A stretch of DNA of 26,651 nt from a virus (taxonomy: Duplodnaviria > Heunggongvirae > Uroviricota > Caudoviricetes): IMG/VR virus record IMGVR_UViG_2609459847_000005; one strand, written 5' to 3'. The stretch's first letter is position 1. Each line of letters opens with the position of its first letter. The position numbers and the translations under genes are program-made. The notes below the pieces were generated by a model. That model saw only the letters and a program-made list of their open reading frames with translations. It was not told the DNA's origin and did no database searches. Positions 2,577 through 25,695 of the stretch are shown here, piece after piece.

Positions 2577-2922
2577 TCTCTGCTCCTGTTGATACGGAAA
2601 GGGAAACAGGCACACCGTTATTACGCCGCCCGGTCAGCTCCACCACCATTGAACCGTCAAAATTGCTGTTAATGGTGATGGAATCCAGCGTCAGCCGTGG
2701 CTCCCAGCGACTCAGCGCCACATACACTGCCGACATGACCTGCAGGCGTAATGCCGGATTTTGTGGCTGGTCTATCAGTGCCGACAGCAGGGAACCATAT
2801 TCCCGACGGGCAATGCGGCTACCCTGCGGCGTCAGCAAAATGTCCCGCACCGACTGGCGCAGATGATCAATATCAGTAATGGCTTTACCGCTGGTATTGT
2901 TCATCCCGCTATAAAGCGTCAT
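2563..2922 (-). CDS. W: Baseplate protein (P2 gpW-like, gp25/lysozyme-like fold family)
   Basis: 119-aa ORF with ATG at 2920-2922; position between V and J; size matches P2 W (about 115 aa). Confidence 0.85.
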   Translation of the reverse strand: MTLYSGMNNTSGKAITDIDHLRQSVRDILLTPQGSRIARREYGSLLSALIDQPQNPALRLQVMSAVYVALSRWEPRLTLDSITINSNFDGSMVVELTGRRNNGVPVSLSVSTGAENGSD

Positions 2923-3497
2923 ACCGGGCCTCCGGTTGTGTCGCCGCCTTTCAGGACGTCAGTATGCTGATGCGCATCAACCACGATCCCGTTAGAACTC
3001 ATCGCTCCGCCGCCCTGGGTAACGCCACCATTGATCACCACTTCGCTGTTAATGCGCGTGCGGTCAGCCTCCAGTACAAACTCACTGGTTTTCATGGTGA
3101 TGTTGTCAGCGGCCTCAATGACCATTGATTTGATGCCCCTGACATACCAGCGCCCGGTAGTGGGTTCGTATTCAAACCAGCCGCCGTCAGGATGTTCTGT
3201 CACGCAGGCGTCTGCCGACGTCGACGGTGGTGCGAACTGATTCGAATAGACAGCGGGCAGCGCAAAGGCAGTTTCCAGATTGCCGCCCAGACTCAGCAGC
3301 ACCACCTGCTCACCTTCCGATGGTCGCCACCATGTGCGGGCATTCCCGGCACGCAGCGTCAGCCAGCTGATCCAGTTGGTTTCAAGCTCGCCCGTTTTCA
3401 CCCGGCAAAGCCAGTTTTCCCGGTCCACTTCGGTGACTACACCAGTGCGGATCAGGTTGGTGATAAGGCGCATGATTTCGGTTAGTTGTGCGTTCAT
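2919..3497 (-). CDS. V: Baseplate spike/assembly protein (P2 gpV-like)
   Basis: ORF 2919..3605; start moved to internal ATG at 3497 (MNAQLTEIMRLITNLIRTGVVTEVD...), which aligns with the recalled P2 V N-terminus (...IRTGII...). The upstream 36 codons of the track ORF overlap the oppositely oriented cargo gene and are treated as spurious. Confidence 0.85.
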   Translation of the reverse strand: MNAQLTEIMRLITNLIRTGVVTEVDRENWLCRVKTGELETNWISWLTLRAGNARTWWRPSEGEQVVLLSLGGNLETAFALPAVYSNQFAPPSTSADACVTEHPDGGWFEYEPTTGRWYVRGIKSMVIEAADNITMKTSEFVLEADRTRINSEVVINGGVTQGGGAMSSNGIVVDAHQHTDVLKGGDTTGGPV

Positions 3498-3543
3498 AGG
3501 GTTAGGTTGCACGGACCTTGAATCTATGGCATCAATACGTCCT

Positions 3544-3561
3544 TGTGTGGTAAATGACACA
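3544..3561. promoter_or_regulatory. TGT-N12-ACA dyad, candidate Ogr/B-type late-activator site (P_V position)
   Basis: Sequence TGTgtggtaaatgacACA at 3544..3561 matches the P2/186 late-promoter activator dyad and lies between S and V. Spacing to the V ATG is shorter than expected and the motif is short, so this is weak. Confidence 0.3.
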
Positions 3562-3592
3562 AATACAATTCCAATCAAAGAAAGGTAAAAGA

Positions 3593-4123
3593 ATGAGCCA
3601 TCCAATTGATTATTACGCTATAGAAGAACACGCAAGAATAATTGAGCAATTATGCTGTTCATCTGAATTTTATTTACAGCGTATATATTCCACACAGAAA
3701 GTATATGATGGTTCTATAGTAACTGAATTTGAAATGGAGGAGTTATCGTACAACGGATGGTTGGAATATACCATTAGCAACAATCTTATTAGCCTTTGTA
3801 CAAAACTACGAATTCTCCAAGACACTAGTGAACATGAGTGGAACCCAGATTACTCACCTGAGAAAGAAGCATTTGAAGAACATGAAAATATACTTTTTGT
3901 TATAGATGGTCATGTTAAAGATTCTATACGCGAATGCTGCAATAAAATTATTCACGCATTAAGTTTTGAGTTAACAAAAAAGACCGGCAAAAATGGAATA
4001 AAATATTGGGACGGTTCTATTATTGCTTCTGGGGTTCAAAACAAAAAAAACTGGAAAATTAAAATAGACCTTTTCCCTTTTTGCCAAAGCATAAAAAGTT
4101 ATTTAAGTTTATTAAGAGCGTAA
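3593..4123 (+). CDS. Hypothetical protein (176 aa), AT-rich cargo gene between S and V
   Basis: ORF 3554..4123 (189 aa); preferred start is ATG 3593 preceded by aaaGGtaaaag. It is on the opposite strand to the flanking late genes, strongly AT-rich against a GC-rich backbone, and fills the S-V gap exactly (V start 3497, S stop 4129). No recognisable domain. Confidence 0.65.
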   Translation: MSHPIDYYAIEEHARIIEQLCCSSEFYLQRIYSTQKVYDGSIVTEFEMEELSYNGWLEYTISNNLISLCTKLRILQDTSEHEWNPDYSPEKEAFEEHENILFVIDGHVKDSIRECCNKIIHALSFELTKKTGKNGIKYWDGSIIASGVQNKKNWKIKIDLFPFCQSIKSYLSLLRA

Positions 4124-4128
4124 ACATT

Positions 4129-4581
4129 CTAATTTTTCATCAATAAATACTTTAAAAGTAAATCTCTTACTTCATTTTCAGTATGTTCATTTAAACCCAG
4201 CAATTTTCGGGATGGATACTTAATGACTCCCCCCTTTGGACTGACGCGATCGCGCAGACCGTAGTGATGAACACGGGCAATACGCTGTACCTTACCTTCA
4301 AACTGTACGCTGGCAGAATCCGCGCTGGCGGCAGTTCTCAGGTATTTTGTGGTGCGCAGCTTTGCAAACATCTGACGTTTGATGCGCCCCTTCTTGCTGC
4401 GTGCTGTTACCCTGCGCGGCTCATAACTGCTGCCATCTGGATTGCGCTGCATCCTGATATTCTGCTGCTGTGTCCGGCGCAGTTCCTGCGCCAGCTGGCG
4501 CATCATTCGGCTTCTTGCGGCTGGTTCCAGATTCGCCAGCAAAGCACTCAGCCAGTCGTCCACCTTCTGCAGTTCAGCCAC
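4129..4581 (-). CDS. S: Tail completion / virion morphogenesis protein (P2 gpS-like)
   Basis: 150-aa ORF, same length as P2 S; GTG start at 4581 overlapping the R stop (translational coupling); gene order R-S. Confidence 0.8.
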   Translation of the reverse strand: MAELQKVDDWLSALLANLEPAARSRMMRQLAQELRRTQQQNIRMQRNPDGSSYEPRRVTARSKKGRIKRQMFAKLRTTKYLRTAASADSASVQFEGKVQRIARVHHYGLRDRVSPKGGVIKYPSRKLLGLNEHTENEVRDLLLKYLLMKN

Positions 4582-5005
4582 GTTTCACCGTCCACATTTC
4601 TTCAGGTTCATCGGGTTCCGCTACTGCTTCAACGCTCGACACACTTCCGTCAGTGCTGACCAGCACACGTTCCGTCAGTTGCAGGTTGAGGCTGATATCA
4701 CAGACATCGTTGCGCAGAATATCCACCTCAAAGGTGAATAACTTTTCCCGTAACGCCGGATTATTGATGGCATCGGGCTGGTTATCACGCAGCCACAGCA
4801 AAACCGGGGCCATCAGCAGATTCTGGTCGCCGCTGAAATCCTCAATCACCACGTTGAGGGTATAACGGTACTCCCATGACATGGAGCTGGCCCCCGTGGC
4901 AACCAGCGAACCGTTATCCACAAACAGATGCAGCTTATCCGGGTTATTGCGGACATAAGGCACTGCTTTATTGAGGGCGTGGCGCAGGGATTGTGGTTTG
5001 TTCAC
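4574..5005 (-). CDS. R: Tail completion protein (P2 gpR-like)
   Basis: ORF 4574..5026 begins with TTG; the in-frame GTG at 5005 is preceded by AGGAG and gives MNKPQSLRHAL..., close to the recalled P2 R N-terminus (MLKPDSLRRAL). Confidence 0.8.
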   Translation of the reverse strand: MNKPQSLRHALNKAVPYVRNNPDKLHLFVDNGSLVATGASSMSWEYRYTLNVVIEDFSGDQNLLMAPVLLWLRDNQPDAINNPALREKLFTFEVDILRNDVCDISLNLQLTERVLVSTDGSVSSVEAVAEPDEPEEMWTVKRG

Positions 5006-6041: not shown

Positions 6042-6237
6042 AGTCCTCCCGCGAAATCTGCCCGTCGCGCAGAAGCTGGTAGGCTTTGTGTTTGTAGTAC
6101 CAGTTGATAGCCAGCATCAGCACACCAATCATCAGGCCGCCCAGCGTTGAGGCATCCTTGATGGACAAATCGCCCAGCCAGGCCAGCACGACGGCGATGC
6201 AATACGTGATAAAGGCGCTGATTCGCTCAAGCGTCAT
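6022..6237 (-). CDS. Holin (small, two predicted TM helices)
   Basis: 71-aa ORF with two hydrophobic stretches (ISAFITYCIAVVLAWL; LGGLMIGVLMLAINWYY) and a charged C-terminus; lies between X and the endolysin. Confidence 0.75.
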   Translation of the reverse strand: MTLERISAFITYCIAVVLAWLGDLSIKDASTLGGLMIGVLMLAINWYYKHKAYQLLRDGQISREDYESINR

Positions 6238-6240
6238 AAT

Positions 6241-6444
6241 TCAGTCCCATAGCTGGACGGTCTGCACGGTGGTGGTTGTCGGAATGTCCGGCAGCTCCAC
6301 CTGCAGCCCGTGAGGTAAAAAGGGGCCGTATTCGGCAAGCCCCGGATTTGCCTTCAGTACCTGCTCCGTGACACCCTGCGTGCGCCCGTAATGACGCCAG
6401 CAAAGTGCGTCCACCGTGTCATACTGATGCGCACGCACTTTCAT
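6241..6444 (-). CDS. X: Tail protein X (P2 gpX-like, LysM-like)
   Basis: 67-aa ORF, same length as P2 X; ATG overlaps the L stop. Confidence 0.8.
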   Translation of the reverse strand: MKVRAHQYDTVDALCWRHYGRTQGVTEQVLKANPGLAEYGPFLPHGLQVELPDIPTTTTVQTVQLWD

Positions 6445-6908
6445 CAGATAAGCTCCACTGTGCAGTGCGGCGCATCCTGCACCCGGCTGATGGCCCAGCG
6501 GGCGTCACGCCATAAATCACCGCTTGCTTCCGCCAGTTCCTCGCCTCGCTTCGCACCGGATGCCGTGGCGTCATAGTCCTGGTAACGTTCGTTGAGCATG
6601 GCGCGTGCCCAGCAGTAAACCGCGTTGAAATAGTGCTGAATGCGCTCGCTTTTGCCGTCCAGTTGTTCCGCCGGGACTTCTGCCAGCGAGGCATACCCCA
6701 GCATCTGCTGGCGTCTGCGAAACTCATACAGCTCTGCGTTGACCTCCGAAATTGCCGACAGCGCAACCTGCTTTAAACGCGGCTGCGTCACCGTGCCGTC
6801 AGTGCGCATGACACTGCGAAACTCCGACAGGTCCACATCAGGCCAGAACGGCGTATTTCTGATGATTTCCGCCTGTTCCGGTGCCTGTTCTGGCGCAACA
6901 AACTTCAT
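6444..6908 (-). CDS. L: Head completion/stabilisation protein (P2 gpL-like)
   Basis: ORF 6444..6971; start moved to internal ATG 6908 (MKFVAPEQ...) preceded by AGGAGA, about 154 aa; order M-L-X. Confidence 0.8.
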   Translation of the reverse strand: MKFVAPEQAPEQAEIIRNTPFWPDVDLSEFRSVMRTDGTVTQPRLKQVALSAISEVNAELYEFRRRQQMLGYASLAEVPAEQLDGKSERIQHYFNAVYCWARAMLNERYQDYDATASGAKRGEELAEASGDLWRDARWAISRVQDAPHCTVELI

Positions 6909-7003
6909 GCTGCTTTCTCCTGAAATAAAGGGCGGTGGACGGGGTTTTGATGTGGCAGTGCCTTTCGCCACCCCGTGCCGCCCGTGCGCGGGGGCACGTT
7001 CTG

Positions 7004-7654
7004 TCAGCGGCTGTCATTGCGCAGTCTGCGCTCCAGCTGCTGTTTGTCTTTTTTCACGCCACAGCGGGGATCGAGCTGTAACGCATGGTTGAGATGATTA
7101 AGGGCGGAAGCCGGATTACTTTCACTCAGGACAGCGCCAATCGCTTTATGCAGACGCGCCCGTGACTGGTCCGGCATATCCAGACCGTCTGTCAGCTCCA
7201 GCGTCTGCAGCAGCAGATCGACATCAAAGCCGGTAGTGGCAAGCATTGCGCTCTGCGCTGCGTCTGCCATTTCCTCTGCCAGCACGGTCTGCACGTTGCG
7301 GTTACCCAGCGGCATCACCCAGCCATGACGCAGGGCATGACGCCCGATCTCCAGCGCTCCGACATAATCTCCGGCATCAATGCGCCACAGCATCACGTAC
7401 ATCAGCACGTCATCCTGTTGAGCGCCTCCGGCAGCCAGGACACCCTCCGCCCAGGCGGCGTATTTCGGCAGCAGCTCCACCTTGATTTCCGCTTTTTTGA
7501 CCGTGGACTGAACGCCCTTGAGACGGCGGCGGTCTTCTGCCAGTTGCAGCAGCATCAGGTCATAGCCCGACGCGTGGCGAACGCTGCCGCCCTCGCGGGC
7601 GGCCTGTTCAGCCTGAACGCGCAGGCGATGCTGCCGTGCGGGACTCAGGCTCAT
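7004..7654 (-). CDS. M: Terminase small (endonuclease) subunit (P2 gpM-like)
   Basis: 216-aa ORF directly downstream of N; ATG at 7652-7654; P2 gene order O-N-M-L. Confidence 0.8.
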   Translation of the reverse strand: MSLSPARQHRLRVQAEQAAREGGSVRHASGYDLMLLQLAEDRRRLKGVQSTVKKAEIKVELLPKYAAWAEGVLAAGGAQQDDVLMYVMLWRIDAGDYVGALEIGRHALRHGWVMPLGNRNVQTVLAEEMADAAQSAMLATTGFDVDLLLQTLELTDGLDMPDQSRARLHKAIGAVLSESNPASALNHLNHALQLDPRCGVKKDKQQLERRLRNDSR

Positions 7655-7657
7655 GGT

Positions 7658-8716
7658 TTACGCTCCGGTTTCTGCTGCGGCGGCGCTGAAGTCGCCAATC
7701 TGGATGTTTTCCACCAGTGCGGCGCAGCGGTAGTCCTCAACCACATAGGCTTCGTTAACGGATTCAAAATTTTCAATCCGGTCACGTTTCGGGTTGTCGA
7801 TAACCGAACGGCGGCGGGTGTCTTCCTGCCAGTAAATGGACAGGTTATCCAGACGGGTGATCAGCAGCGCATTCGGCGGGAAGAACGGCGCACGCACGGC
7901 CTGCAGGCCACCCATGCGTTTCTGACTGATGATCATATCGGCAGCCAGTTTTTCACTGTTTTCCTGCTCTTTGTTGACCAGCGGGAAATACTTGTCAGAC
8001 AGCAGCTCACGACCGCAAATCACCACCAGATCGTCATCGTCCTGGTAGACCACGTCGATAAGCTCATTGACCGCATCCATCACCACGGCGTCCAGGTTGG
8101 CATATTCGCCACCTTTCCCGACTTTCACCGCACCCGGTGTGGTTTCACCGCCCGTGGTGGTGCTGCCCATGACGTGATCCGGTGCATCCTCACGGATTTT
8201 CTGCAGCCAGCCTTTGTTCACATCCTGCAGCAGCGGGTTTTCGCTACGGTTGGAGGTTTTCGCACGCTTCACGCCGTTAAAGCCGATCATGATGCGGTCC
8301 AGTGCCTGGCGTTTCACGATGGCGTCACGGATACGCACCTGGAAATCCTGAAACTTCGCCCACAGGTCCAGCTTCGCGTAGGTCAGCACCGTGTCAAAGT
8401 TGGTCTGTTCGCATTTGTATTCCACATCGATCATCAGCGTCGGATCGACAGGTTCACGCTCTTTCGCGGTGGTGTCAGTGGTTCCGGCAATGGTGCTGCC
8501 AACACCCAATCCAAGCAGCTGACCGGACTGCTCAGTCACTGGCGTGACGTTAATCAGCGTCAGGAAAGCGGCGGACTGCTGGATCTGGTCTTCCAGCGTC
8601 TGCTGCACAGACGGCTCTACGGTGAACTTGCTGGACAGTTCCTCAACTGCCACACCGTTCAGACGCGCCAGTTGCTGCAGGTAAGCGTTAAAAGCAAAAC
8701 GGGTATTCTTCTTCAT
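7658..8716 (-). CDS. N: Major capsid protein (P2 gpN-like)
   Basis: 352-aa ORF (P2 N about 357 aa); GGAG Shine-Dalgarno before ATG 8716; follows scaffold gene O. Confidence 0.9.
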   Translation of the reverse strand: MKKNTRFAFNAYLQQLARLNGVAVEELSSKFTVEPSVQQTLEDQIQQSAAFLTLINVTPVTEQSGQLLGLGVGSTIAGTTDTTAKEREPVDPTLMIDVEYKCEQTNFDTVLTYAKLDLWAKFQDFQVRIRDAIVKRQALDRIMIGFNGVKRAKTSNRSENPLLQDVNKGWLQKIREDAPDHVMGSTTTGGETTPGAVKVGKGGEYANLDAVVMDAVNELIDVVYQDDDDLVVICGRELLSDKYFPLVNKEQENSEKLAADMIISQKRMGGLQAVRAPFFPPNALLITRLDNLSIYWQEDTRRRSVIDNPKRDRIENFESVNEAYVVEDYRCAALVENIQIGDFSAAAAETGA

Positions 8717-9644: not shown

Positions 9645-9662
9645 TGTACCGACAACCACACA
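9645..9662. promoter_or_regulatory. TGT-N12-ACA dyad in the O/P divergent late-promoter region
   Basis: TGTaccgacaaccacACA at 9645..9662, about 85 bp upstream of the O start, spacing compatible with an Ogr/B-type activator site for P_O. Confidence 0.4.
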
Positions 9663-9708
9663 AACCGCAGGCGGGGAAAGCCTTCATTCAAGGCTGTAGG
9701 TTTGTGCC

Positions 9709-11475
9709 ATGAACACCACACTGACACCCGCAGATCTCGATCCCCGTCGGCAGGCCATGCTGCTGTACTTTCAGGGATACCGCGTAGCCCGCATTGCTGA
9801 AATGCTGGGCGAGAAAGTTGCAACCGTTCACAGCTGGAAAAAACGCGACAAGTGGGGTGACTATGGGCCGCTGGATCAGATGCAGCTCACCACCGCCGCC
9901 CGCTACTGCCAGCTCATTATGAAGGAGCACAAAGAAGGGAAAGATTTCAAAGAAATTGACCTGCTGGCGCGCCAGTCGGAGCGCCACGCGCGGATCGGCA
10001 AGTTTAACAATGGCGGCAACGAAGCCGACTTAAACCCTAACGTCGCCAACCGCAACAAAGGGCCGCGCCGTCAGCCGGAAAAGAATGTTTTCACCGATGA
10101 ACAGATTGAGAAGCTGGAAGAAATCTTCCATTCCTCCATGTTCAACTACCAGCGCCACTGGTGGGAAGCCGGAAAAACCAATCGCATCCGCAACCTGCTG
10201 AAGTCTCGCCAGATCGGCGCGACCTTTTACTTTGCCCGTGAAGCCCTGATTGACGCCCTGCTGACCGGACGTAACCAGATTTTCCTTTCCGCCAGTAAGG
10301 CACAGGCCCACGTCTTTAAGCAGTACATCATCGACTTCGCCAAAGAAGTGGATGTGGAACTGAAAGGCGATCCGATGGTGCTTCCTAACGGGGCCACGCT
10401 TTACTTCCTCGGCACCAATGCCCGCACGGCCCAGAGTTACCACGGCAACCTGTATCTGGATGAATATTTCTGGATACCGAAATTCCAGGAGCTGCGCAAA
10501 GTGGCTTCCGGTATGGCTATTCACAAAAAATGGCGACAAACCTATTTTTCCACGCCATCCAGCCTGACACACAGTGCTTATCCGTTCTGGTCCGGTGCGC
10601 TGTTCAACCGAGGGCGCAACAAAGCCGATAAGGTGGACATCGACCTGTCCCACAGCAATCTGGCCCCCGGCCTGCTGTGCGCAGACGGGCAGTACCGCCA
10701 GATAGTCACCGTGGAAGATGCGGTGCGCGGCGGCTGTAACCTGTTCGACCTTGACCAGTTGCGCATGGAGTACAGCCCGGACGAATACCAGAACCTGCTG
10801 ATGTGCGAGTTCGTGGACGATCTCGCGTCCGTGTTCCCGCTCAGCGAGCTGCAGGCGTGCATGGTGGACAGTTGGGAAGTCTGGACCGACTTTCATGCAC
10901 TGGCCCTGCGCCCGTTTGGCTGGCGCGAAGTGTGGATCGGATATGACCCGGCGAAAGGTACGCAGAACGGCGACAGCGCCGGATGCGTGGTGGTGGCGCC
11001 GCCAGCCGTGCCGGGCGGTAAGTTCCGCATTCTTGAGCGTCACCAGTGGCGCGGAATGGACTTCCGCGCCCAGGCTGACGCCATCAAAAAACTGACCGAA
11101 CAGTACAACGTGACCTATATCGGTATCGACTCAACCGGCGTTGGTCACGGGGTTTACGAGAACGTGAAAGCGTTTTTTCCTGCCGTCCGGGAGTTTGTCT
11201 ACAACCCCAACGTTAAAAACGCCCTGGTACTCAAGGCCTACGACATTATCAGCCACCGCCGTCTGGAGTTTGACGCCGGACACACCGACATAGCGCAGTC
11301 CTTTATGGCAATCCGTCGCGCCACCACCGCCAGTGGCAACCGCCCGACCTATGAAGCCAGCCGCAGCGAAGAAGCCAGCCACGCCGATCTGGCCTGGGCA
11401 ACGATGCACGCACTGTTTAACGAACCGCTGCAGGGCGAATCCGCCAATACCAGCAATATTGTGGAGATTTTTTGA
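9709..11475 (+). CDS. P: Terminase large (ATPase) subunit (P2 gpP-like)
   Basis: 588-aa ORF (P2 P 590 aa); divergent from O; stop overlaps the Q start. Confidence 0.9.
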   Translation: MNTTLTPADLDPRRQAMLLYFQGYRVARIAEMLGEKVATVHSWKKRDKWGDYGPLDQMQLTTAARYCQLIMKEHKEGKDFKEIDLLARQSERHARIGKFNNGGNEADLNPNVANRNKGPRRQPEKNVFTDEQIEKLEEIFHSSMFNYQRHWWEAGKTNRIRNLLKSRQIGATFYFAREALIDALLTGRNQIFLSASKAQAHVFKQYIIDFAKEVDVELKGDPMVLPNGATLYFLGTNARTAQSYHGNLYLDEYFWIPKFQELRKVASGMAIHKKWRQTYFSTPSSLTHSAYPFWSGALFNRGRNKADKVDIDLSHSNLAPGLLCADGQYRQIVTVEDAVRGGCNLFDLDQLRMEYSPDEYQNLLMCEFVDDLASVFPLSELQACMVDSWEVWTDFHALALRPFGWREVWIGYDPAKGTQNGDSAGCVVVAPPAVPGGKFRILERHQWRGMDFRAQADAIKKLTEQYNVTYIGIDSTGVGHGVYENVKAFFPAVREFVYNPNVKNALVLKAYDIISHRRLEFDAGHTDIAQSFMAIRRATTASGNRPTYEASRSEEASHADLAWATMHALFNEPLQGESANTSNIVEIF

Positions 11476-12517: not shown

Positions 12518-13216
12518 TTATTTGTTTCTTCTTTGTTCACGCCTTGTCTTGGCTTCGATAAGGCGTTGAGGTTCAGTGTAAAGCCGTTCTAAAAAAAGAT
12601 AGGTAAAATCTTCAAGATCCTCAGCAGCAGCTTTATCCAAAATACCTTCATGCGCTCCATCATTTCCGTCATCTTTAACGCATTCAGCTAGTTCCCTTAA
12701 AGCTTCAGGCAGTAGATGATTATCAAATAACCACTCCATTCTTAACCCTAGGCTTCTCCTTATTTTTTGCGCAGGCCCTTGCTCCCCATCAGGAAGAAGT
12801 CCTTTTGTGGCATAATCAAGGCAAAGCCTAAACATGGTTGCTGCTGCATTATAACAACCTATAGCCAAACATTTCGCCCCTTCCTCATATGCACTATTGA
12901 TATGCTCAGGTAAGAACTCTGGTGGCTCCTCTACTGCTAAGTCTGCCGGTGATATAGGCCTAACAACCTCTGCAACTTCCTTTAAGCCGAATATTCCACT
13001 TTCCCAATTATAGCCATCTAAAGTTTTATTTTTCGTTAAAGGTCTGCAAAGAAACATTGTCGTTTTATGACACTCTCGGCAAACACAATAGACCTCGTAC
13101 TCGTATGTTTTACCCCCGCCCAATGCATTGTAAACCCTAGTGCAATTCAGCCCATTAACATCAAACGCTATTTTTTGTGATCCACATCGTGGACAGTCAT
13201 CCACTAACATAACCAT
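12518..13216 (-). CDS. Hypothetical protein (232 aa): N-terminal zinc ribbon plus C-terminal alpha-helical domain (HEPN/DUF4145-like?)
   Basis: Strong GGGAGGAG Shine-Dalgarno before ATG 13216. N-terminus has CPRCGS...C..CVCRECH (Cys4-type ribbon); C-terminal region has GNDGAH (an NxxxH motif) in a predicted helical domain. AT-rich; sits between the Q 3' end and the putative cos site. Confidence 0.75.
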   Translation of the reverse strand: MVMLVDDCPRCGSQKIAFDVNGLNCTRVYNALGGGKTYEYEVYCVCRECHKTTMFLCRPLTKNKTLDGYNWESGIFGLKEVAEVVRPISPADLAVEEPPEFLPEHINSAYEEGAKCLAIGCYNAAATMFRLCLDYATKGLLPDGEQGPAQKIRRSLGLRMEWLFDNHLLPEALRELAECVKDDGNDGAHEGILDKAAAEDLEDFTYLFLERLYTEPQRLIEAKTRREQRRNK

Positions 13217-13505: not shown

Positions 13506-14117
13506 CTACGTAACCACAGTTAATGTGTGCATCCTGTCTCGAATTGCATCACACGTCTCATCAAAAAGCTTGGTGATGGTTGTACGGTTCAACTCTGCCT
13601 CTTTCCAATAATTTTGCCAGTCAAATTCTGGATCGCCATGCTGAAACGATATTGACTCTGAAAGGCATTCCTTCCGGAAACGGTCCAAGATTATATAAAC
13701 CTCTGGTGAGATGAACGGTTTGTTAGACTCAACACTTGTAACAAAAGTATTAAATGCATCGAAAAAAACTTTCAACCTTCTAAATTTTCTCTCTTCAAAT
13801 GGTTCGTTGGGGTCAAAATGATCCAGCGCAGGCCTCAGCTTAAGCACGCTTTCTCTGGTTTCAAACATCGAATTCCAAATGAGACTATATGCTGATAACT
13901 CCTTATCAAAATACGCTTTCGTTACATAAACAGAATTGTCTAACTTAGCCTTTATTCTTTCATTAGTTGCACTCAGTTGTGATTGAAATTCAGCAATATC
14001 TTTGTTTAGCCGCGACTTATATCTTTCTAAATAAACTTTCCCGATCCAAACAAATATGCCAGATGCAACAAAAGACACCCCACCCAACGAAGCCAGAATT
14101 TTAAAGACTAAATCCAT
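13506..14117 (-). CDS. Hypothetical membrane-anchored protein (203 aa)
   Basis: ATG 14117 preceded by AGGTGGGGG; N-terminal TM helix (ILASLGGVSFVASGIFVWIGKVY) followed by a charged, helix-rich soluble domain; AT-rich; no recognisable domain. Confidence 0.75.
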   Translation of the reverse strand: MDLVFKILASLGGVSFVASGIFVWIGKVYLERYKSRLNKDIAEFQSQLSATNERIKAKLDNSVYVTKAYFDKELSAYSLIWNSMFETRESVLKLRPALDHFDPNEPFEERKFRRLKVFFDAFNTFVTSVESNKPFISPEVYIILDRFRKECLSESISFQHGDPEFDWQNYWKEAELNRTTITKLFDETCDAIRDRMHTLTVVT

Positions 14118-20175: not shown

Positions 20176-20294
20176 AGTGCAGTATCTCCCGATTAAGGTT
20201 TGGTTTACGTCGTTTTATCTCGTTTTACTTGATTCAATATTTGATACATCGAGATACTACGATCCAATATTTGATACGTCAACAGGATTAAAAA
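20176..20294. promoter_or_regulatory. Lysis-lysogeny switch region (pR/pL and operators) between the apl-like gene and cI
   Basis: Direct repeats CAATATTTGATAC at 20235..20247 and 20265..20277 (30-bp phasing), and CGTTTTA at 20211..20217 and 20221..20227; divergent genes on either side. Confidence 0.55.
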
Positions 20295-20927
20295 ATGATA
20301 CAGGTAAAGGTTGGAGAGAATACAGGGGGAAGAGAGGCTATCCATAGACTAATGGCAGCCTATGATTTCAAGTCCAGACAGCAACTTTGCGATCACTTAG
20401 GCGCATCAAAAAGCACCATGGCAAACAGATACTTAAGAGATAGTTTTCCTGCAGAGTGGGTGATTCAGTGCGCCTTGGAAACAGGAGTTTCTTTACTGTG
20501 GCTAACCACCGGACAGGGGGAGCCAGGTCCAAACATTGAACCTAAAAAAAATATCAATTCCGTGAACTCCAGCAAGGTTGTACCTCTTTCTGAACTAGTA
20601 TCTCCTGAAATTGACAAGGCGACTCTCAACGGTGGTTTATTGGTCGATGCTGGAAAAGCAATCATTGATAGCAGCATACTCCCCTCAGACTCAAGCAACC
20701 TACTGCTGGTGACTACTTCTGGTGATTCTTATTTAATAGATCGCAACCAAACACCACCAGTAAATGGTATGTGGTTAGTCGATATTGACGGGATAAAAAG
20801 CATTGTTAAATTGACTCGACTTCCGGGAAACAAATTAGTAGTGCATCAGGATGATTCATCGTTTGAGTGTGGCCTAGATGACATTGAGGTAGTAGGCCGC
20901 GCACTGAAAATCATTAAGAGCCTTTGA
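20295..20927 (+). CDS. cI: CI-like immunity repressor (186 CI family)
   Basis: 210-aa ORF; N-terminal HTH region (ANRYLRDSFPAEWVIQCALETGVSLLWLTTGQG) resembles the 186 CI N-terminal domain as recalled; AGGA Shine-Dalgarno; directly precedes int. Confidence 0.8.
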   Translation: MIQVKVGENTGGREAIHRLMAAYDFKSRQQLCDHLGASKSTMANRYLRDSFPAEWVIQCALETGVSLLWLTTGQGEPGPNIEPKKNINSVNSSKVVPLSELVSPEIDKATLNGGLLVDAGKAIIDSSILPSDSSNLLLVTTSGDSYLIDRNQTPPVNGMWLVDIDGIKSIVKLTRLPGNKLVVHQDDSSFECGLDDIEVVGRALKIIKSL

Positions 20928-20928
20928 T

Positions 20929-21945
20929 ATGACCATCAGAAAACAGCCGAACGGAAAATGGTTGTGTGAGTGCTATCCCAATGGACGCAATGGTAAGCGC
21001 GTGCGTAAGCAATTTGCTACGAAAGGCGAAGCCATTGCTTTTGAAAGCTTCACAATGGAAGAAGTGAATAAAAAACCGTGGTTGGGTGAAAAGGATGATC
21101 GGCGACGCCTATCAGAATTAATTGAGCTTTGGTATTCCCTGTATGGTCAGACACTCGCAGACCCCAAGCGCCTCATGGCGAAACTTAGAATTATCTGTAA
21201 TGGTCTAGGCGACCCCATCGCCTCAGAACTGACAGCCGGTGACTTTACGAAATACCGCGAAGCACGGTTAAAAGGTGACGTTCGTAACGAAGACGGCACA
21301 CTAATGTCGCCAGTAAAACCACGCACGGTGAATCTTGAGCAACGTAACCTATCATCGGTTTTCGGCACATTGAAAAAACTAGGCCACTGGTCAGCACCAA
21401 ATCCTCTCGCCGGGCTGCCAACATTTAAAATCGCTGAGGGGGAACTGGCGTTCCTGACCTCGGAAGAAATTAAACGTCTGCTAGATGCCTGCGCTGATTC
21501 TCAAAACCCCAGTCTGCTTTTGATTGCAAAAATATGCCTGGCCACCGGCGCACGCTGGAGTGAAGCTGAAAACCTGCAGGGCCATCAGTTATCTAAATAC
21601 CGCATCACTTATACCAAGACGAAGGGTAAGAAAAACCGCACCGTGCCGATATCTCAAGATCTGTATGACGAACTCCCCAAGAACAGAGGGAAGCTATTCA
21701 CCCCGTGCAGAAAAGCCTTTGAACGAGCAGTAAAGCGAGCTGGCATCGAGCTGCCAGAGGGCCAATGCACTCACGTGCTACGTCATACATTCGCCAGCCA
21801 TTTTATGATGAATGGCGGAAACATACTGGTGCTGCGCGATATTCTGGGCCATGCCGATATAAAAATGACGATGATTTACGCCCACTTTTCGCCCGATCAC
21901 CTTGAAGATGCGGTAACTAAAAACCCTTTATGCAACTTAAGATAG
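20929..21945 (+). CDS. int: Tyrosine integrase (P2/186 Int family)
   Basis: 338-aa ORF; C-terminal catalytic region with R...HVLRHTFASHFMMNGG...LGHADIKMTMIYAH (RHR-Y tyrosine-recombinase signature); immediately follows cI. Confidence 0.9.
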   Translation: MTIRKQPNGKWLCECYPNGRNGKRVRKQFATKGEAIAFESFTMEEVNKKPWLGEKDDRRRLSELIELWYSLYGQTLADPKRLMAKLRIICNGLGDPIASELTAGDFTKYREARLKGDVRNEDGTLMSPVKPRTVNLEQRNLSSVFGTLKKLGHWSAPNPLAGLPTFKIAEGELAFLTSEEIKRLLDACADSQNPSLLLIAKICLATGARWSEAENLQGHQLSKYRITYTKTKGKKNRTVPISQDLYDELPKNRGKLFTPCRKAFERAVKRAGIELPEGQCTHVLRHTFASHFMMNGGNILVLRDILGHADIKMTMIYAHFSPDHLEDAVTKNPLCNLR

Positions 21946-22325: not shown

Positions 22326-24059
22326 CTACTCAAGGAGATATTCTAACTCATCTTTTATCGGGATAATTTGCTCATAAAGTCGGTGATATGACTTCCCAAT
22401 TGCGCCTCTAAATTGTATTAACTTTGGTGGCTTACTACCTATATTAATAATATGGTCTTGAGCTATACCTGGGTAGGGATCAATAAATACAATTTCAGAT
22501 ATACCTAACTGATAAGCTTTTTTCGCACACAACTCACAGGGACTGGCAGTTGTATACAACTTCCCCCCCAGAACGCCAATACCACCATATTTTGCAAGTT
22601 GTAAAAATGCGTTTTCCTCAGCATGTAATGCACGTGTATGAACTTGATTACCTTTTTTCTCTTTATCAAGATCATTATGTATATCTTTAAAACAATAAGA
22701 TAAGTTCCTGCCTCTATAAATATCACCAGTTTTATCTATCGCCCTAAAATTTAAGAGTTTCTCATTAGCTTTAATTCTGAAAGAACTATTATTTCTCTCA
22801 TAATGACTGTACGTTTTTTCATCAAAATCGTTCATTAGGCCATCTAGAGATCTCATAGAGCAAGGAATCTGACCGTTGGCAACATCATTCCAACCAACTG
22901 ATTTTATTGAATTATCACCATCAGTTACTACAGCTCCCACCTGTCTAGATATACAGCCAGAGTTTAATTTTACCGTATACGCAACTTGCATAACCCTTTC
23001 CATTGCAGTAGGTGTTATCAGACCAGGATGCTTCATCAGTGCGATGTACCACGCTAATTGTGCTTTTAAAATATTGTCATTATCAAATTCATTTTTTGGG
23101 TTAAAAATGTGTATATCTGATAGTTCAATACATTTAGTTACATTTGGATTGGTGAGATGTTTGTAAGAGTTATCACCTTTACCTGACTCTACAGAATCTA
23201 TTTCCTCTATCTGCTTTTCTGAAAACTTATGTAGTTTCCGCAAATAGTTTGTTCGATGTTCATCTGGGGCATTTATTGACATTAAATGAAATGCAGAATA
23301 TCTATCCTTAAAAAATTTTGCCTCATATGGATTTCTAATAGCATCTATGACAATTAATGCGTTATCTCTTTTGCTTTTTCTTATTAATTTAATAACCCTA
23401 TTAATAGTTTCCGGCAAATGAAAAACAGATTTAGGCATAAACTCTTTATCTTCAAAATCGACTTCAATACGCCCACGACGTCTAATTGACTTACCTGCTA
23501 ACTGATAGGCTGAAACATATAAATTTGAGTTTATCTCATTTAGTTCAGCTTTGAATTCTTTAGTAAATTTTCTAACTAACTTCAAAATTGATATAAATTT
23601 ATTAATCGTTTTTTCATCAAACTTCAATTCACTATTATGATCAAGCAAATTCTCAATTACATTTTTAAATCTTGTCAAAATGAGATTATCTGAGAATACA
23701 CCAAAAGTTAATACAATATCTAAATGCTCTTTACTGATAAATTTATTAGATGATAGAATGAATTCAGAAGCTTCCTCAACTGTTAACATCAGAAGATACG
23801 CTGAGATTAGGTCACTCACCTTAATTGAGTAAAAATTTTCCCAGTGATTTTCTGCGAATTTTTTAACTATATTATAACGATGGACATCCAATCCCTTGTA
23901 AAACCCCTGTAATTTACTTACATCAGGGAAGACTGTTTTTTCGTTTTCAAGAATATTAGCTGTTGTTGTGCAACCAGAACCAGTTCGACCTGTCAAACCG
24001 ACTAAAATAAACTGCCCATTTTCAAGGAAAAGCTCACTAACGAATTTTTTTTCTTTCAT
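22326..24059 (-). CDS. P-loop NTPase / dCMP-dCTP deaminase fusion (AvcD/DCD-like nucleotide-depletion defence protein)
   Basis: 577 aa from ATG 24059 (track ORF starts at GTG 24062). N-terminal P-loop region with non-canonical Walker A (GLTGRTGSGCTT, no Lys) and Walker-B-like LIVID. C-terminal cytidine/dCMP deaminase signatures (RQVGAVV...GWN; HAEENA; PCELC zinc-binding motifs). Strongly AT-rich relative to the phage backbone. Confidence 0.8.
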   Translation of the reverse strand: MKEKKFVSELFLENGQFILVGLTGRTGSGCTTTANILENEKTVFPDVSKLQGFYKGLDVHRYNIVKKFAENHWENFYSIKVSDLISAYLLMLTVEEASEFILSSNKFISKEHLDIVLTFGVFSDNLILTRFKNVIENLLDHNSELKFDEKTINKFISILKLVRKFTKEFKAELNEINSNLYVSAYQLAGKSIRRRGRIEVDFEDKEFMPKSVFHLPETINRVIKLIRKSKRDNALIVIDAIRNPYEAKFFKDRYSAFHLMSINAPDEHRTNYLRKLHKFSEKQIEEIDSVESGKGDNSYKHLTNPNVTKCIELSDIHIFNPKNEFDNDNILKAQLAWYIALMKHPGLITPTAMERVMQVAYTVKLNSGCISRQVGAVVTDGDNSIKSVGWNDVANGQIPCSMRSLDGLMNDFDEKTYSHYERNNSSFRIKANEKLLNFRAIDKTGDIYRGRNLSYCFKDIHNDLDKEKKGNQVHTRALHAEENAFLQLAKYGGIGVLGGKLYTTASPCELCAKKAYQLGISEIVFIDPYPGIAQDHIINIGSKPPKLIQFRGAIGKSYHRLYEQIIPIKDELEYLLE

Positions 24060-24254
24060 CACGTCCCACTTATGAATGCAAGAACAATTAGCATATTAAT
24101 TATAATTTATTAACTAATTTTATTCTAGATGCTTGATGTAATGGCGGCACTTTGGCGGCAGAGCATTAAAAACGCGTAAGACGAGCAAATACAAAATAAC
24201 ACTAACACATTGTTTTCAAACATAATCTACTGTTTTTACTATAATAAAAATGGT

Positions 24255-24299: not shown

Positions 24300-24334
24300 A
24301 TTTTTGATATATTGAAGTTCAGTGAAGTCTATCA

Positions 24335-24367
24335 AGCCCGCATGGAACCAGCCTTGCGGGCTTTTTT
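24335..24367 (+). terminator. Rho-independent terminator downstream of the ssrA 3' fragment
   Basis: AGCCCGCA-tggaaccagcct-TGCGGGCT followed by TTTTTT. Confidence 0.6.
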
Positions 24368-24465
24368 ACGTCTATAGTAGTCTACCGAGAATTGCTAGAA
24401 TCTACTCGTTATGGCACCCTTTTTGGGACCCAACACAAAGGGTCCAAAACATGAGGGTCCCAAAC

Positions 24466-25695
24466 ATGGCAAAAATCGCTAAGAAGCTCACTGACACTGA
24501 AATCAAAAGCACCAAACCTGCCGAGAAAGAGGTTAACCTTTTTGACGGCGATGGTTTGCTCCTGCGAATCGCCCCCTTAGCGAAGGGAGGAAAGAAAAAT
24601 TGGTATTTCAGATATGCAGTGCCTGTGACCAAAAAGCGAACTAAGGTGAGCTTAGGAACCTATCCTCACCTTACACTTGCGAAGGCACGAGCTTTACGTG
24701 ATGAGTACTTGTCGTTGCTTGCAAATGGTATAGACCCACAAGTTCATAACACCCACAAAGCCAATGCCCTTAAGGATGCAACGGAACATACATTTCAAGC
24801 AGTAGCCAAGAAGTGGCTTGATGAGAAAGTCAAAACGTCAGGCATCTCCCAGGATCATGCTAACGACATCTGGCGAAGCCTAGAGAGAAATATCTTTCCA
24901 ACGTTGGGTGATACCCCCATTAAGGAGATTCGCCCTAAAATGCTTAAACAGCATTTAGACCCCATAGAAAAACGAGGTGTCCTTGAAACACTTCGCCGCG
25001 TCATATCCCGCCTGAATGAAATTTTCCGCTATGCAGCAACAGAAGAACTCATAGAATTCAATCCGGCTGACAACCTGGGGCAACGGTTCAGCAAGCCAAA
25101 AAAACAGAATATGCCAGCATTACCCCCTTCCGAACTCCCCCGCTTCCTGGTTGCTCTAAACAATGCTTCTATCCGTTTAGAAACAAGGCTACTGATTGAG
25201 TGGCAACTTCTCACATGGGTTCGCCCTGGTGAAGCTGTTCGCACAAGATGGTCAGATATTGATATAGAAACCAGCATGTGGAACATCCCGGCGGAGTTTA
25301 TGAAAATGAAGAAGCCTCACAAAGTTCCACTGAGCAAAGAATCTTTGCGAGTCTTGGATTCAATGAAAGCCATCAGCGGGCATAGAGAGTGGGTTTTTCC
25401 CAGTATCAAAGCTCCACTCAATCACATGCATGAACAAACAGCTAATGCGGCTATAATCCGTATGGGCTTCGGAGGTGAGCTTGTAGCTCATGGTATGCGA
25501 TCAATCGCTAGAACGGCGGCTGAGGAGTGTGGCAAGTTTAGAACTGATGTCTTAGAAGCCGCCCTTGCCCACTCGAAAAAAGATGAAATAATTGCAGCCT
25601 ACAATCGTGCAGAGTATCTCACAGAACGTGTGGTTCTCATGCAATGGTGGAGTGACTATGTTTCGTCTCAAAAATACAAAGTTATTGCCGCATAA
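24466..25695 (+). CDS. intA: Tyrosine integrase, CP4-57 IntA / P4-family (ssrA-targeting type)
   Basis: ORF 24322..25695; start moved to internal ATG 24466 (MAKIAKKLTDTEIKSTKPAEKEVNLFDGDGLLLRI...) because the upstream part spans the terminator hairpin; N-terminal pattern typical of P4-family integrases (DUF4102-like); adjacency to the ssrA 3' end as in CP4-57. Confidence 0.8.
   Translation: MAKIAKKLTDTEIKSTKPAEKEVNLFDGDGLLLRIAPLAKGGKKNWYFRYAVPVTKKRTKVSLGTYPHLTLAKARALRDEYLSLLANGIDPQVHNTHKANALKDATEHTFQAVAKKWLDEKVKTSGISQDHANDIWRSLERNIFPTLGDTPIKEIRPKMLKQHLDPIEKRGVLETLRRVISRLNEIFRYAATEELIEFNPADNLGQRFSKPKKQNMPALPPSELPRFLVALNNASIRLETRLLIEWQLLTWVRPGEAVRTRWSDIDIETSMWNIPAEFMKMKKPHKVPLSKESLRVLDSMKAISGHREWVFPSIKAPLNHMHEQTANAAIIRMGFGGELVAHGMRSIARTAAEECGKFRTDVLEAALAHSKKDEIIAAYNRAEYLTERVVLMQWWSDYVSSQKYKVIAA

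What the first reader, a model, noticed from the sequence alone, without database searches (positions are those of the whole stretch)
3554..4123. Orphan AT-rich gene inserted between tail-completion gene S and baseplate gene V, antisense to late transcription
The late tail operon is otherwise compact with overlapping start/stop codons, but a 176-189-aa ORF of visibly different base composition sits on the opposite strand in the S-V gap, 5 nt from the S stop. P2 carries an unrelated nonessential ORF (orf30) at this same junction, so this looks like a moron insertion site that may be a further cargo hotspot. The protein has no recognisable domain. It is cysteine-containing and charged, with a lysine-rich C-terminus.
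Basis: partly seen in the sequence, partly recalled or inferred. Interest (0 to 1): 0.65.

Follow-up and report, generated by a model that had tools for sequence, protein, structure and literature searches.

The report
Prophage cargo gene, likely anti-phage defence
A small foreign gene sits between two tail-gene operons of a P2-like E. coli prophage, and it belongs to a rare, unannotated family that also travels as single-gene integron cassettes and inside AbiE abortive-infection operons, so it is most likely a stand-alone anti-phage protein rather than part of the virus particle.

Summary
A conserved ORF at 3593-4123 (+), 176 aa and 32% GC, lies between S and V of a Cartapus-like P2 prophage. 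It is antisense to the late genes and ends 5 nt from the S stop. It is a real gene: dN/dS is 0.09, and published LF82 RNA-seq shows it transcribed in the lysogen while its neighbours are silent.

The closest relatives have only a 68-nt S-V gap. The gene arrived in a module of about 725 bp that also replaced the last ~33 codons of S and the pV promoter. Other E. coli prophages hold TIR, FRG (PDC-S15), PDC-S59, DUF6216 or other genes in this slot, and P2 holds orf30. The literature already lists it as a variable locus.

The family has no Pfam, NCBIfam or PADLOC match. About a sixth to a quarter of genomic copies are single-gene integron cassettes. In five alphaproteobacterial loci it is the third gene of an AbiEi-AbiEii operon. 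A confident AlphaFold model has no close structural match. It resembles HEPN toxins weakly, including the integron-cassette HEPN 3JRT. Its invariant motif is R-E-x-C-N-K-I-I-H.

Best reading: a stand-alone HEPN-like defence effector. Function is not proven.

The parts
3593..4123 (+). Cargo gene: 176 aa plus stop, soluble, 20.6 kDa, pI 5.4. Identical to Cartapus gp14 / LF82_787 / WP_000019234.
   Evidence: Start fixed by the conserved MSHPI N-terminus. dN/dS 0.094. AF2 pLDDT 95.2.
3554..3592 (+). In-frame upstream extension that gives the 189-aa reading. Probably not translated.
   Evidence: No homologue has it. It overlaps the pV activator site and the candidate promoter.
3581..3585 (+). Ribosome-binding site AAAGG, 7 nt before ATG 3593.
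   Evidence: Read directly from the sequence.
3543..3569 (+). Candidate sigma-70 promoter of the cargo gene: TTGTGT, 15 nt, TACAAT. Inferred only.
   Evidence: Read from the sequence. The consensus scan requires a 16-18 nt spacer and did not report it. It is not clearly conserved in L006 or L008.
3544..3561 (.). TGT-N12-ACA dyad, the Ogr/Delta-type late activator site of the V-operon promoter, 47-64 nt upstream of the V start.
   Evidence: the dyad is conserved at this position in relatives, L006 and L008. Position as in P2. Two further matches fall in the O-P promoter gap.
2919..3497 (-). Baseplate spike gene V, first gene of the V late operon.
   Evidence: PF04717 and the Apex motif. Annotation.
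4129..4581 (-). Tail-completion gene S, last gene of the preceding late operon.
   Evidence: PF05069, E 4e-42. Annotation.
4129..4235 (-). AT-rich (GC 0.27) replacement of the last ~33 codons of S, imported together with the cargo gene and still S-like in protein sequence.
   Evidence: The same feature is present in the Salmonella (L008) and Enterobacter (L006) carriers.
3510..4235 (.). The whole imported module of about 725 bp: pV promoter variant, cargo gene and S 3' end. It replaces about 170 bp of the relatives.
   Evidence: Breakpoints from alignments to phages 500465-1 and KP12. GC profile.

Best explanation
The gene is horizontally acquired prophage cargo, not a virion part. It sits in the gap between two late operons, so it does not interrupt phage genes. 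It is transcribed on its own in the lysogen.

Its product is a soluble protein of about 20 kDa that works without a partner gene. I infer that it is a stand-alone anti-phage effector of the abortive-infection or superinfection-exclusion type with a HEPN-like fold. In this reading a helical bundle presents an invariant polar cluster: R73 and D77 at the end of helix 2, and R113-E114-N117-K118-H121 on a short helix. That cluster would form a metal-independent ribonuclease-type site, probably across a dimer, and would damage RNA when a competing phage infects.

Shown here:
- The gene is foreign and under purifying selection.
- It is transcribed independently of the late operons.
- The slot is a variable cargo site.
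- The family moves as single-gene integron cassettes and also sits in AbiE operons.

Inferred, not shown:
- The defence role.
- The HEPN relationship.
- RNase chemistry.
- Silencing during the prophage's own lytic cycle. This could occur through convergent late transcription, since no terminator follows S, or through Ogr binding over the candidate promoter.
For: Foreign origin:
- GC 0.32 against 0.57 in the flanks.
- Close relatives lack the gene.
- Recombination breakpoints lie at about 3510 and about 4235.

Selection and spread:
- dN/dS 0.094.
- 93 representative homologues and 108 species genomes.
- In most genomic loci the gene has lower GC than the surrounding DNA, for example 0.39 against 0.60.

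Expression, from PMC9928086 Table S1 as log2(5+fpkm):
- 5.1-6.0 in DMEM and 4.4-5.3 in macrophages.
- 2.3-4.3 for the neighbouring genes S and V.

The slot carries defence-type genes elsewhere: TIR, FRG (PDC-S15, E 8.5e-32) and PDC-S59 (E 1.7e-197).

The protein acts alone. It is a single-gene cassette between attC-like repeats in Vibrio and Aliivibrio arrays. Of 77 loci, 13 have at least 2 extra copies of the flanking repeat and 22 have at least 1, against 0 of 77 for a gene-internal control.

Association with conflict systems:
- It is the third gene of AbiEi-AbiEii(NTase)-X operons in five alphaproteobacterial loci. X identities are 57-70% and AbiEii 63-76%, except for one near-identical pair (L065/L067, 94% and 96%).
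- One homologue lies next to Abi_2.
- The most frequent neighbour families are AbiE, HEPN_Toprim_N, phage integrase and Mrr_cat.

Fold:
- AF2 pLDDT 95.2.
- 3jrt is the 'integron cassette HEPN' prototype (PMC3710099).
- Its conserved K63/E66 at the end of helix 2 plus H109 (PMC3548836) parallel R73/D77 plus H121 here.

Integron cassettes are a proven source of small anti-phage genes, including a HEPN-only one (bioRxiv 10.1101/2024.07.02.601686).
Against: - No protection, toxicity or RNase data exist for any member of the family.
- None of the 69 members matches a HEPN Pfam model or a PADLOC defence model convincingly. A family profile finds no PDB sequence.
- Foldseek finds nothing in PDB or BFVD.
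- The motif spacing is R-x7-H, outside the defining Rx4-6H.
- The motif helix is short and is followed by a beta-meander.
- The protein is acidic.
- Expression in stationary LB is near background. The authors of the LF82 study did not call the gene a moron.
- Many genomic copies sit between housekeeping genes with no defence neighbours.
Confidence: 0.5

Rival explanations
1. It is a selfish toxin or stress-dormancy module with no antiviral role. A HEPN-like RNase would slow growth under stress or stabilise the element that carries it, as proposed for HEPN integron cassettes.
For: Anantharaman et al. proposed exactly this for the integron HEPN family. The family occurs in AbiE toxin-antitoxin operons. 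Expression depends on growth condition.
Against: There is no antitoxin partner in the window or within single-gene cassettes. An unguarded toxin would be hard to keep. The S-V slot elsewhere carries defence-type genes.
Confidence: 0.15
2. It is a counter-defence protein that helps the phage, or its lysogen's other elements, overcome host immunity.
For: It is small, acidic (pI 5.4), phage-borne and fast-moving. The family lies next to defence genes in some genomes.
Against: It is antisense to the late operons and transcribed in the lysogen rather than with lytic genes. Most copies are chromosomal or integron-borne. It forms a co-directional operon with AbiE rather than opposing it. A survey of P2-like phages found anti-defence genes to be rare.
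Confidence: 0.1
3. It is a host-fitness or virulence moron, useful to the bacterium in the gut or in macrophages and unrelated to phages.
For: Transcript levels are higher in DMEM and in macrophages than in stationary LB in the adherent-invasive strain LF82.
Against: The same family occurs in marine Vibrionaceae, cyanobacteria, Chloroflexia and soil bacteria. It has no signal peptide or membrane segment. The rise may reflect growth phase only.
Confidence: 0.1
4. It is a non-functional ORF or an unrecognised structural or assembly gene of the phage.
For: It lies among tail genes. It was annotated only as hypothetical.
Against: Strong purifying selection. Absent from close relatives that share 94-96% identical flanking S and V DNA. 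Homologues occur outside phages.
Confidence: 0.03

Closest known systems
Integron-cassette HEPN family (Vpc_cass2, PDB 3JRT) and minimal HEPN toxins of HEPN-MNT pairs (HepT: PDB 5YEP, 7AE2)
   Different: No detectable sequence or profile similarity. The Arg-His spacing is x7, not x4-6. A three- to four-stranded beta-meander follows the motif where 3JRT has helical extensions. No RNase activity has been shown.
P2 orf30 and the other cargo of the S-V variable locus of P2-like phages
   Same: Same slot between the end of the O..S operon and the pV promoter. Usually on the opposite strand, AT-rich, nonessential, and absent from close relatives.
   Different: Unrelated protein. P2 has a terminator after S, while none is seen here. 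Here the import also replaced the S C-terminus.
Single-gene abortive-infection proteins with HEPN domains (AbiD/AbiF = Abi_2, AbiJ, AbiU2, AbiV) and the V. cholerae cassette system Esos
   Same: One protein is expected to sense and act. These genes are carried on prophages, integrons and defence islands. One homologue lies beside an Abi_2 gene.
   Different: No HMM match to any of them. I could not obtain the Esos sequence, so identity with it is untested.
AbiE (AbiEi antitoxin and AbiEii nucleotidyltransferase toxin) systems
   Same: Five alphaproteobacterial members are the third, tightly abutting or overlapping gene of AbiEi-AbiEii operons.
   Different: The window has no AbiEi or AbiEii. 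Classical AbiE is a two-gene system.

Membership tests
HEPN superfamily (Anantharaman et al. 2013; Pfam clan KNTase_C/HEPN) | Core up-and-down four-helix bundle with an insert between helices 2 and 3. | tested here: inconclusive
HEPN superfamily (Anantharaman et al. 2013; Pfam clan KNTase_C/HEPN) | Rx4-6H motif at the end of helix 3. | tested here: not met
   The invariant motif is R113-E-x-C-N117-K118-I-I-H121, that is R-x7-H. The N-x3-H part matches the RNxxxH spacing, and the His lies at the helix end.
HEPN superfamily (Anantharaman et al. 2013; Pfam clan KNTase_C/HEPN) | Conserved acidic or polar residue in helix 2 near the active site. | tested here: met
   D77 is D or E in 67 of 69 sequences and R73 is invariant. 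Both lie at the C-terminal end of helix 45-78. Their closeness to H121 in three dimensions could not be checked.
HEPN superfamily (Anantharaman et al. 2013; Pfam clan KNTase_C/HEPN) | Sequence or profile match to a described HEPN family. | tested here: not met
   No HEPN Pfam family is matched by any of the 69 members at E<=1. No PDB sequence hit at E<=10.
HEPN superfamily (Anantharaman et al. 2013; Pfam clan KNTase_C/HEPN) | Metal-independent RNase activity. | not testable with these tools
   Needs a purified protein or cell-based RNA cleavage assay.
Cargo (moron) of the P2-like S-V / orf30 variable locus | Lies between S and V, is absent from close relatives, has atypical composition, and is transcribed independently of the late operons. 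| tested here: met
Integron gene cassette | A single ORF bounded by attC sites within a cassette array. | tested here: not met
   The window copy has no attC-like site or flanking repeat. Homologues do have them: L015 and L084 by direct inspection. Of 77 loci, 13 have at least 2 and 22 have at least 1 extra copy of the flanking repeat.
Catalogued anti-phage defence systems (PADLOC-DB v2) | HMM match to a known or candidate defence protein. | tested here: not met
   No hit for the window protein at E<=10. Only scattered single weak hits among the 69 members.
Catalogued anti-phage defence systems (PADLOC-DB v2) | Measured protection against phage infection. | not testable with these tools
   No experiment on this family was found.
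Two-gene toxin-antitoxin module | An adjacent co-transcribed partner gene. | tested here: not met
   There is no second ORF in the 631-nt S-V gap. Cassettes hold this ORF alone.

The most novel reading that the evidence does not exclude
This is a previously undescribed family of minimal (~180 aa) stand-alone immune effectors with a HEPN-derived fold, in which the catalytic arginine has moved one helical turn (R-x7-H) and a beta-meander has been added. The family shuttles between integron cassette arrays, a three-gene form of AbiE and the S-V slot of P2-like phages. Its link to AbiEii would imply that AbiE nucleotidyltransferases can control a HEPN-like partner, as MNT controls HepT.
Probability: 0.3. 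Interest if true: 0.6.

Novelty: new member of a known kind. Interest (0 to 1): 0.45.

Why it matters
If the protein protects against phages, it would be one of the smallest self-contained defence proteins, and it would come from a family absent from current defence catalogues. It would also show that the S-V (orf30) slot of P2-like prophages deserves the systematic screening already given to the old/tin and Z/fun slots. About half of the sampled E. coli prophages of this type carry some gene there.

The family's presence in integron cassettes, in AbiE operons and in a prophage slot shows one gene moving between three kinds of mobile 'gene bank'. The gene is also present in the Crohn's-associated strain LF82, where its transcript level rises in cell-culture medium and in macrophages.

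Tried and rejected
- Pfam, NCBIfam and PADLOC on the protein and on 69 homologues gave nothing useful.
- PHROGs gave only a self-family of unknown function.
- A family profile against PDB sequences found nothing.
- Foldseek against PDB and BFVD found nothing, and the AFDB library was unavailable.
- The promoter and terminator scan found no terminator and no plus-strand promoter.
- Rfam gave only a chance-level match.
- A search for attC sites, target duplications or flanking repeats around the window gene found none. My relaxed attC detector was too noisy to use, scoring 18% of shuffled sequences.
- I looked for a low-GC donor P2-like phage in IMG/VR. L117 turned out to be a degraded remnant in a GC-rich background, not a donor.
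- I tested whether the two ORFs upstream of the homologue in L119 are AbiE-like. They are not.
- I tried to link the family to the published HEPN-only cassette system Esos. Its sequence is not in the held text or supplement.
- Full-text searches for the protein accession and for the motif peptide found nothing.
- I ran no further search on a HEPN profile-profile test, because a negative result would not have been informative.

Full report
**What is in the window**

Positions 2900-4600 are 100% identical to Escherichia phage Cartapus, a P2-like prophage of E. coli LF82 in the Peduoviridae. Positions 1-20188 are 99.1% identical to the LF82 prophage. Beyond that, the immunity and integrase region and the flank differ, so the source is a Cartapus-like prophage in another strain.

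The late genes run on the minus strand. S (tail completion, PF05069) is at 4129-4581 and V (baseplate spike, PF04717) is at 2919-3497. Between them, on the plus strand, is the reported ORF.

The first ATG is at 3554 and gives 189 aa. Every close homologue, and nearly all of the 69 aligned relatives, start MSHPI... The real start is therefore ATG 3593 (176 aa), preceded by AAAGG at 3581-3585. GenBank annotates it the same way.

The ORF ends at 4123, 5 nt from the S stop codon.

**It is a real, selected and expressed gene**

- Against the Salmonella copy (74% amino-acid identity), dN/dS is 0.094 with dS 1.6.
- An exhaustive search of 1.84 billion representatives finds 93 relatives at E<=1e-3. 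Most of them are stand-alone proteins of about 175-210 aa.
- In the published LF82 transcriptomes (PMC9928086, Table S1) the gene is LF82_787/CARTA_14.
- Its log2(5+fpkm) values are 3.5/2.7 in stationary LB, 5.1-6.0 in DMEM and 4.4-5.3 in macrophages. The neighbouring genes S and V stay between 2.3 and 4.3.
- It is therefore transcribed on its own in the lysogen at a modest, condition-dependent level. It fell below that paper's five-fold cut-off, which was applied to stationary LB only.

**How it got there**

Close relatives whose flanking S and V DNA is 94-96% identical (E. coli phage 500465-1, Klebsiella KP12 and many others) have only 68 nt between S and V. Alignment places the left breakpoint at about 3510, just upstream of the V start. 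The right breakpoint is at about 4230-4240, inside S.

The last ~33 codons of S are therefore also foreign (GC 0.27). They still encode an S-like C-terminus. The Salmonella and Enterobacter P2-like prophages that carry 74% and 60% identical copies of the gene show the same AT-rich S tail.

Inside the imported segment, a TGT-N12-ACA dyad at 3544-3561 lies 47-64 nt upstream of V, the same position as the annotated activator site of P2's V promoter. Relatives have a dyad at the same place. Two of the other four matches in the window fall in the O-P promoter gap.

The unit that moves is thus [S 3' end + cargo gene + pV promoter]. It is exchanged by homologous recombination between P2-like phages. 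I infer that it was assembled in a lower-GC P2-like phage, but I did not find that donor. There is no attC site, target duplication or flanking repeat.

**The slot is a known variable locus**

In P2 the S-V gap is the boundary between two late operons. It holds a terminator after S, then nonessential orf30 on the opposite strand, then the activator site and V. Orf30 is unrelated to this protein.

Of 1,047 E. coli records matching these S/V flanks, 22 carry this gene. In an evenly spaced sample of 60 records:

- About 30 slots are empty.
- 16 hold other inserts of at least ten different sizes.
- About 10 more have larger or more divergent content.

The five I opened encode:

- a TIR-domain protein;
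- an FRG-domain protein, matching PADLOC candidate PDC-S15 (E 8.5e-32);
- a 429-aa protein matching PDC-S59 (E 1.7e-197);
- a DUF6216 protein, in BL21;
- a 386-aa hypothetical protein.

Four of these five lie on the strand opposite to S and V.

Earlier literature lists the orf30 locus, with the TO and Z regions, as a place where P2-like phages carry horizontally acquired genes (PMC3091744). Recent defence-hotspot papers concentrate on gpA-gpQ and Z/fun and mention the tail-gene sites only in passing.

**The protein family**

No member matches Pfam, NCBIfam or PADLOC convincingly. All source names read 'hypothetical protein'. The family is rare: 140 clusters at 90% identity among 5.8 billion.

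It is widely scattered. It occurs in Vibrio, Aliivibrio, Photobacterium and Pseudoalteromonas (the closest non-enterobacterial copies, 38-46% identity). It also occurs in Xanthomonadales, cyanobacteria, Chloroflexia, Bacteroidota, alpha- and beta-proteobacteria, and one Methanosarcinales bin. In most loci the gene has lower GC than the surrounding DNA, which marks it as mobile cargo in most places where it occurs.

Three contexts stand out.

1. Integron cassettes.
   - In Vibrio sinaloensis and Aliivibrio the gene is one cassette in an array of attC-like repeats of about 125 nt (TAACAAA...GGCGTTA). There are 12 and 8 copies, spaced 480-1100 bp, and the gene is the only ORF between two repeats.
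   - Across 77 loci, the 160 nt flanking the gene recur at least twice more on the same strand in 13 loci, and at least once in 22. A gene-internal control recurs in 0.
   - Strict attC-like hairpins adjoin the gene in 10 loci, against 1 of 231 shuffles.
   - The protein therefore works without a partner.
2. AbiE operons.
   - In five alphaproteobacterial loci it is the third gene of an operon with AbiEi (DUF6088) and AbiEii (nucleotidyltransferase), directly abutting or overlapping the upstream ORF.
   - The partners have co-diverged. X is 57-70% identical and AbiEii 63-76%, except for one near-identical pair (L065/L067, 94% and 96%).
3. Other neighbours.
   - One homologue lies next to an Abi_2 gene.
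   - Among the two nearest genes on each side in 50 non-array loci, the most recurrent families are AbiEii, AbiEi, HEPN_Toprim_N, phage integrase and Mrr_cat. The remainder are singletons, many of them housekeeping genes.

In IMG/VR, 17 of 18 close relatives are flanked by S and V. A beta-proteobacterial P2-like contig has a distant copy next to gpD/gpU instead.

**Structure and likely chemistry**

With the 69-sequence alignment, AlphaFold2 gives pLDDT 95.2 and pTM 0.89. The elements are helices 7-34 and 45-78, an insert at 79-111, a short helix at 112-120, a beta-meander at 124-159 and a helix at 160-175.

Invariant residues are R73, R113, N117, K118, H121 and W154. Nearly invariant residues are E114, W139, G141 and G147, and position 77 is D or E in 97% of sequences.

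3JRT is the prototype of the 'integron cassette HEPN' family of Anantharaman et al. (PMC3710099). Its describers noted conserved K63/E66 at the C-terminal end of helix 2, grouped with H109 across the dimer (PMC3548836). R73/D77 and H121 here have almost the same spacing.

The topology fits the HEPN description:

- helix 1;
- helix 2 with a conserved acidic residue;
- an insert;
- helix 3 ending in the motif His;
- an insertion after the motif, as in Csx1;
- helix 4.

Placement downstream of a nucleotidyltransferase mirrors MNT-HEPN pairs.

The defining Rx4-6H spacing is not met, because the motif is R-x7-H. N117-x3-H121 does match the N and H of RNxxxH, with the Arg one turn upstream. No profile-level similarity was found. 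I therefore say that it works like a HEPN protein with moderate confidence, and I do not file it as a member.

**Mechanism, with its status**

Shown here:

- The gene is foreign cargo in an inter-operon slot.
- It is under purifying selection.
- It is transcribed in the lysogen.
- It is autonomous as a single gene.
- It is associated with abortive-infection genes and integrons.

Inferred:

- It defends the lysogen against other phages.
- It acts through a HEPN-like RNase site.
- Its promoter is TTGTGT-15 nt-TACAAT at 3543-3569, overlapping the Ogr site.
- During the prophage's own late phase, convergent transcription from S, which has no terminator, or Ogr binding shuts it off.

Integron cassettes are an experimentally validated source of small defence genes. 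In V. cholerae, 16 cassettes tested positive, including a HEPN-only protein.

The rivals are a dormancy or addiction toxin, a counter-defence protein, a host-fitness factor, and a non-functional or structural gene. They are weighed in the dedicated fields.

**Verdict**

This is a genuine moron in a known variable locus. It encodes an unannotated, mobile, probably HEPN-like stand-alone protein that is a good candidate for a new small defence gene. It is worth a phage-challenge experiment. It is expected rather than surprising in kind.

Noticed in passing
window 12518-13216 (-) and 13506-14117 (-): The classic gpQ-adjacent (old/tin) hotspot holds a DUF4145 (HEPN-family) protein with a weak PD-T7-4 match (E 1.2e-6) and a 203-aa hypothetical protein. 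In LF82 these are LF82_788 and LF82_789. Their transcripts rise to log2 values of about 9.5-10.5 in macrophages.
   Followed up: partly
window 22326-24062 (-) and 24322-25695 (+): Just beyond the prophage integrase lie a dCTP-deaminase-type defence gene (PADLOC dCTPase, E 1.3e-145) and a second, P4-type integrase. A separate defence island therefore abuts the prophage.
   Followed up: partly
window 20189-21945: The window stops matching LF82 Cartapus at 20188. The CI-like gene has no match and the integrase is only 85% identical. This prophage is a mosaic with a different immunity and integration module.
   Followed up: partly
window 9645-9662 and 9703-9720: Two TGT-N12-ACA dyads lie in the O-P intergenic gap, where P2 has its divergent late promoters.
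   Followed up: no
L046, L047, L065, L067, L071 (about 6150-8400 in each): A conserved three-gene operon, AbiEi(DUF6088)-AbiEii-family member, occurs in Rhodobacterales and related alphaproteobacteria. This may be a three-component form of AbiE.
   Followed up: partly
L009 2056-3692; also L010, L011: A 159-aa, apparently truncated homologue lies divergent from an Abi_2 (AbiD/F-like) gene and a DUF6338 gene on metagenomic contigs.
   Followed up: no
L096-L100 (E. coli S-V slots): Other cargo in the same slot: a TIR protein (same strand as S and V), FRG/PDC-S15, PDC-S59, DUF6216 in BL21 (overlapping the S 3' end by 59 nt) and a 386-aa hypothetical protein.
   Followed up: partly
L119 3001-3546: A beta-proteobacterial P2-like viral contig carries a 29% identical homologue next to gpD/gpU, not in the S-V slot. 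Two upstream same-strand ORFs have no recognisable relatives.
   Followed up: partly
L117 2577-6132: A degraded P2-like remnant holds a 61% identical copy beside a truncated V, followed by a CI-like gene and a 504-aa AT-rich ORF of unknown function.
   Followed up: no
L006 763-1380 (+): The Enterobacter P2-like prophage that carries a copy in the S-V slot also has a 205-aa gene with no domain in the Z/fun slot, between the tail-fibre assembly and sheath genes.
   Followed up: no
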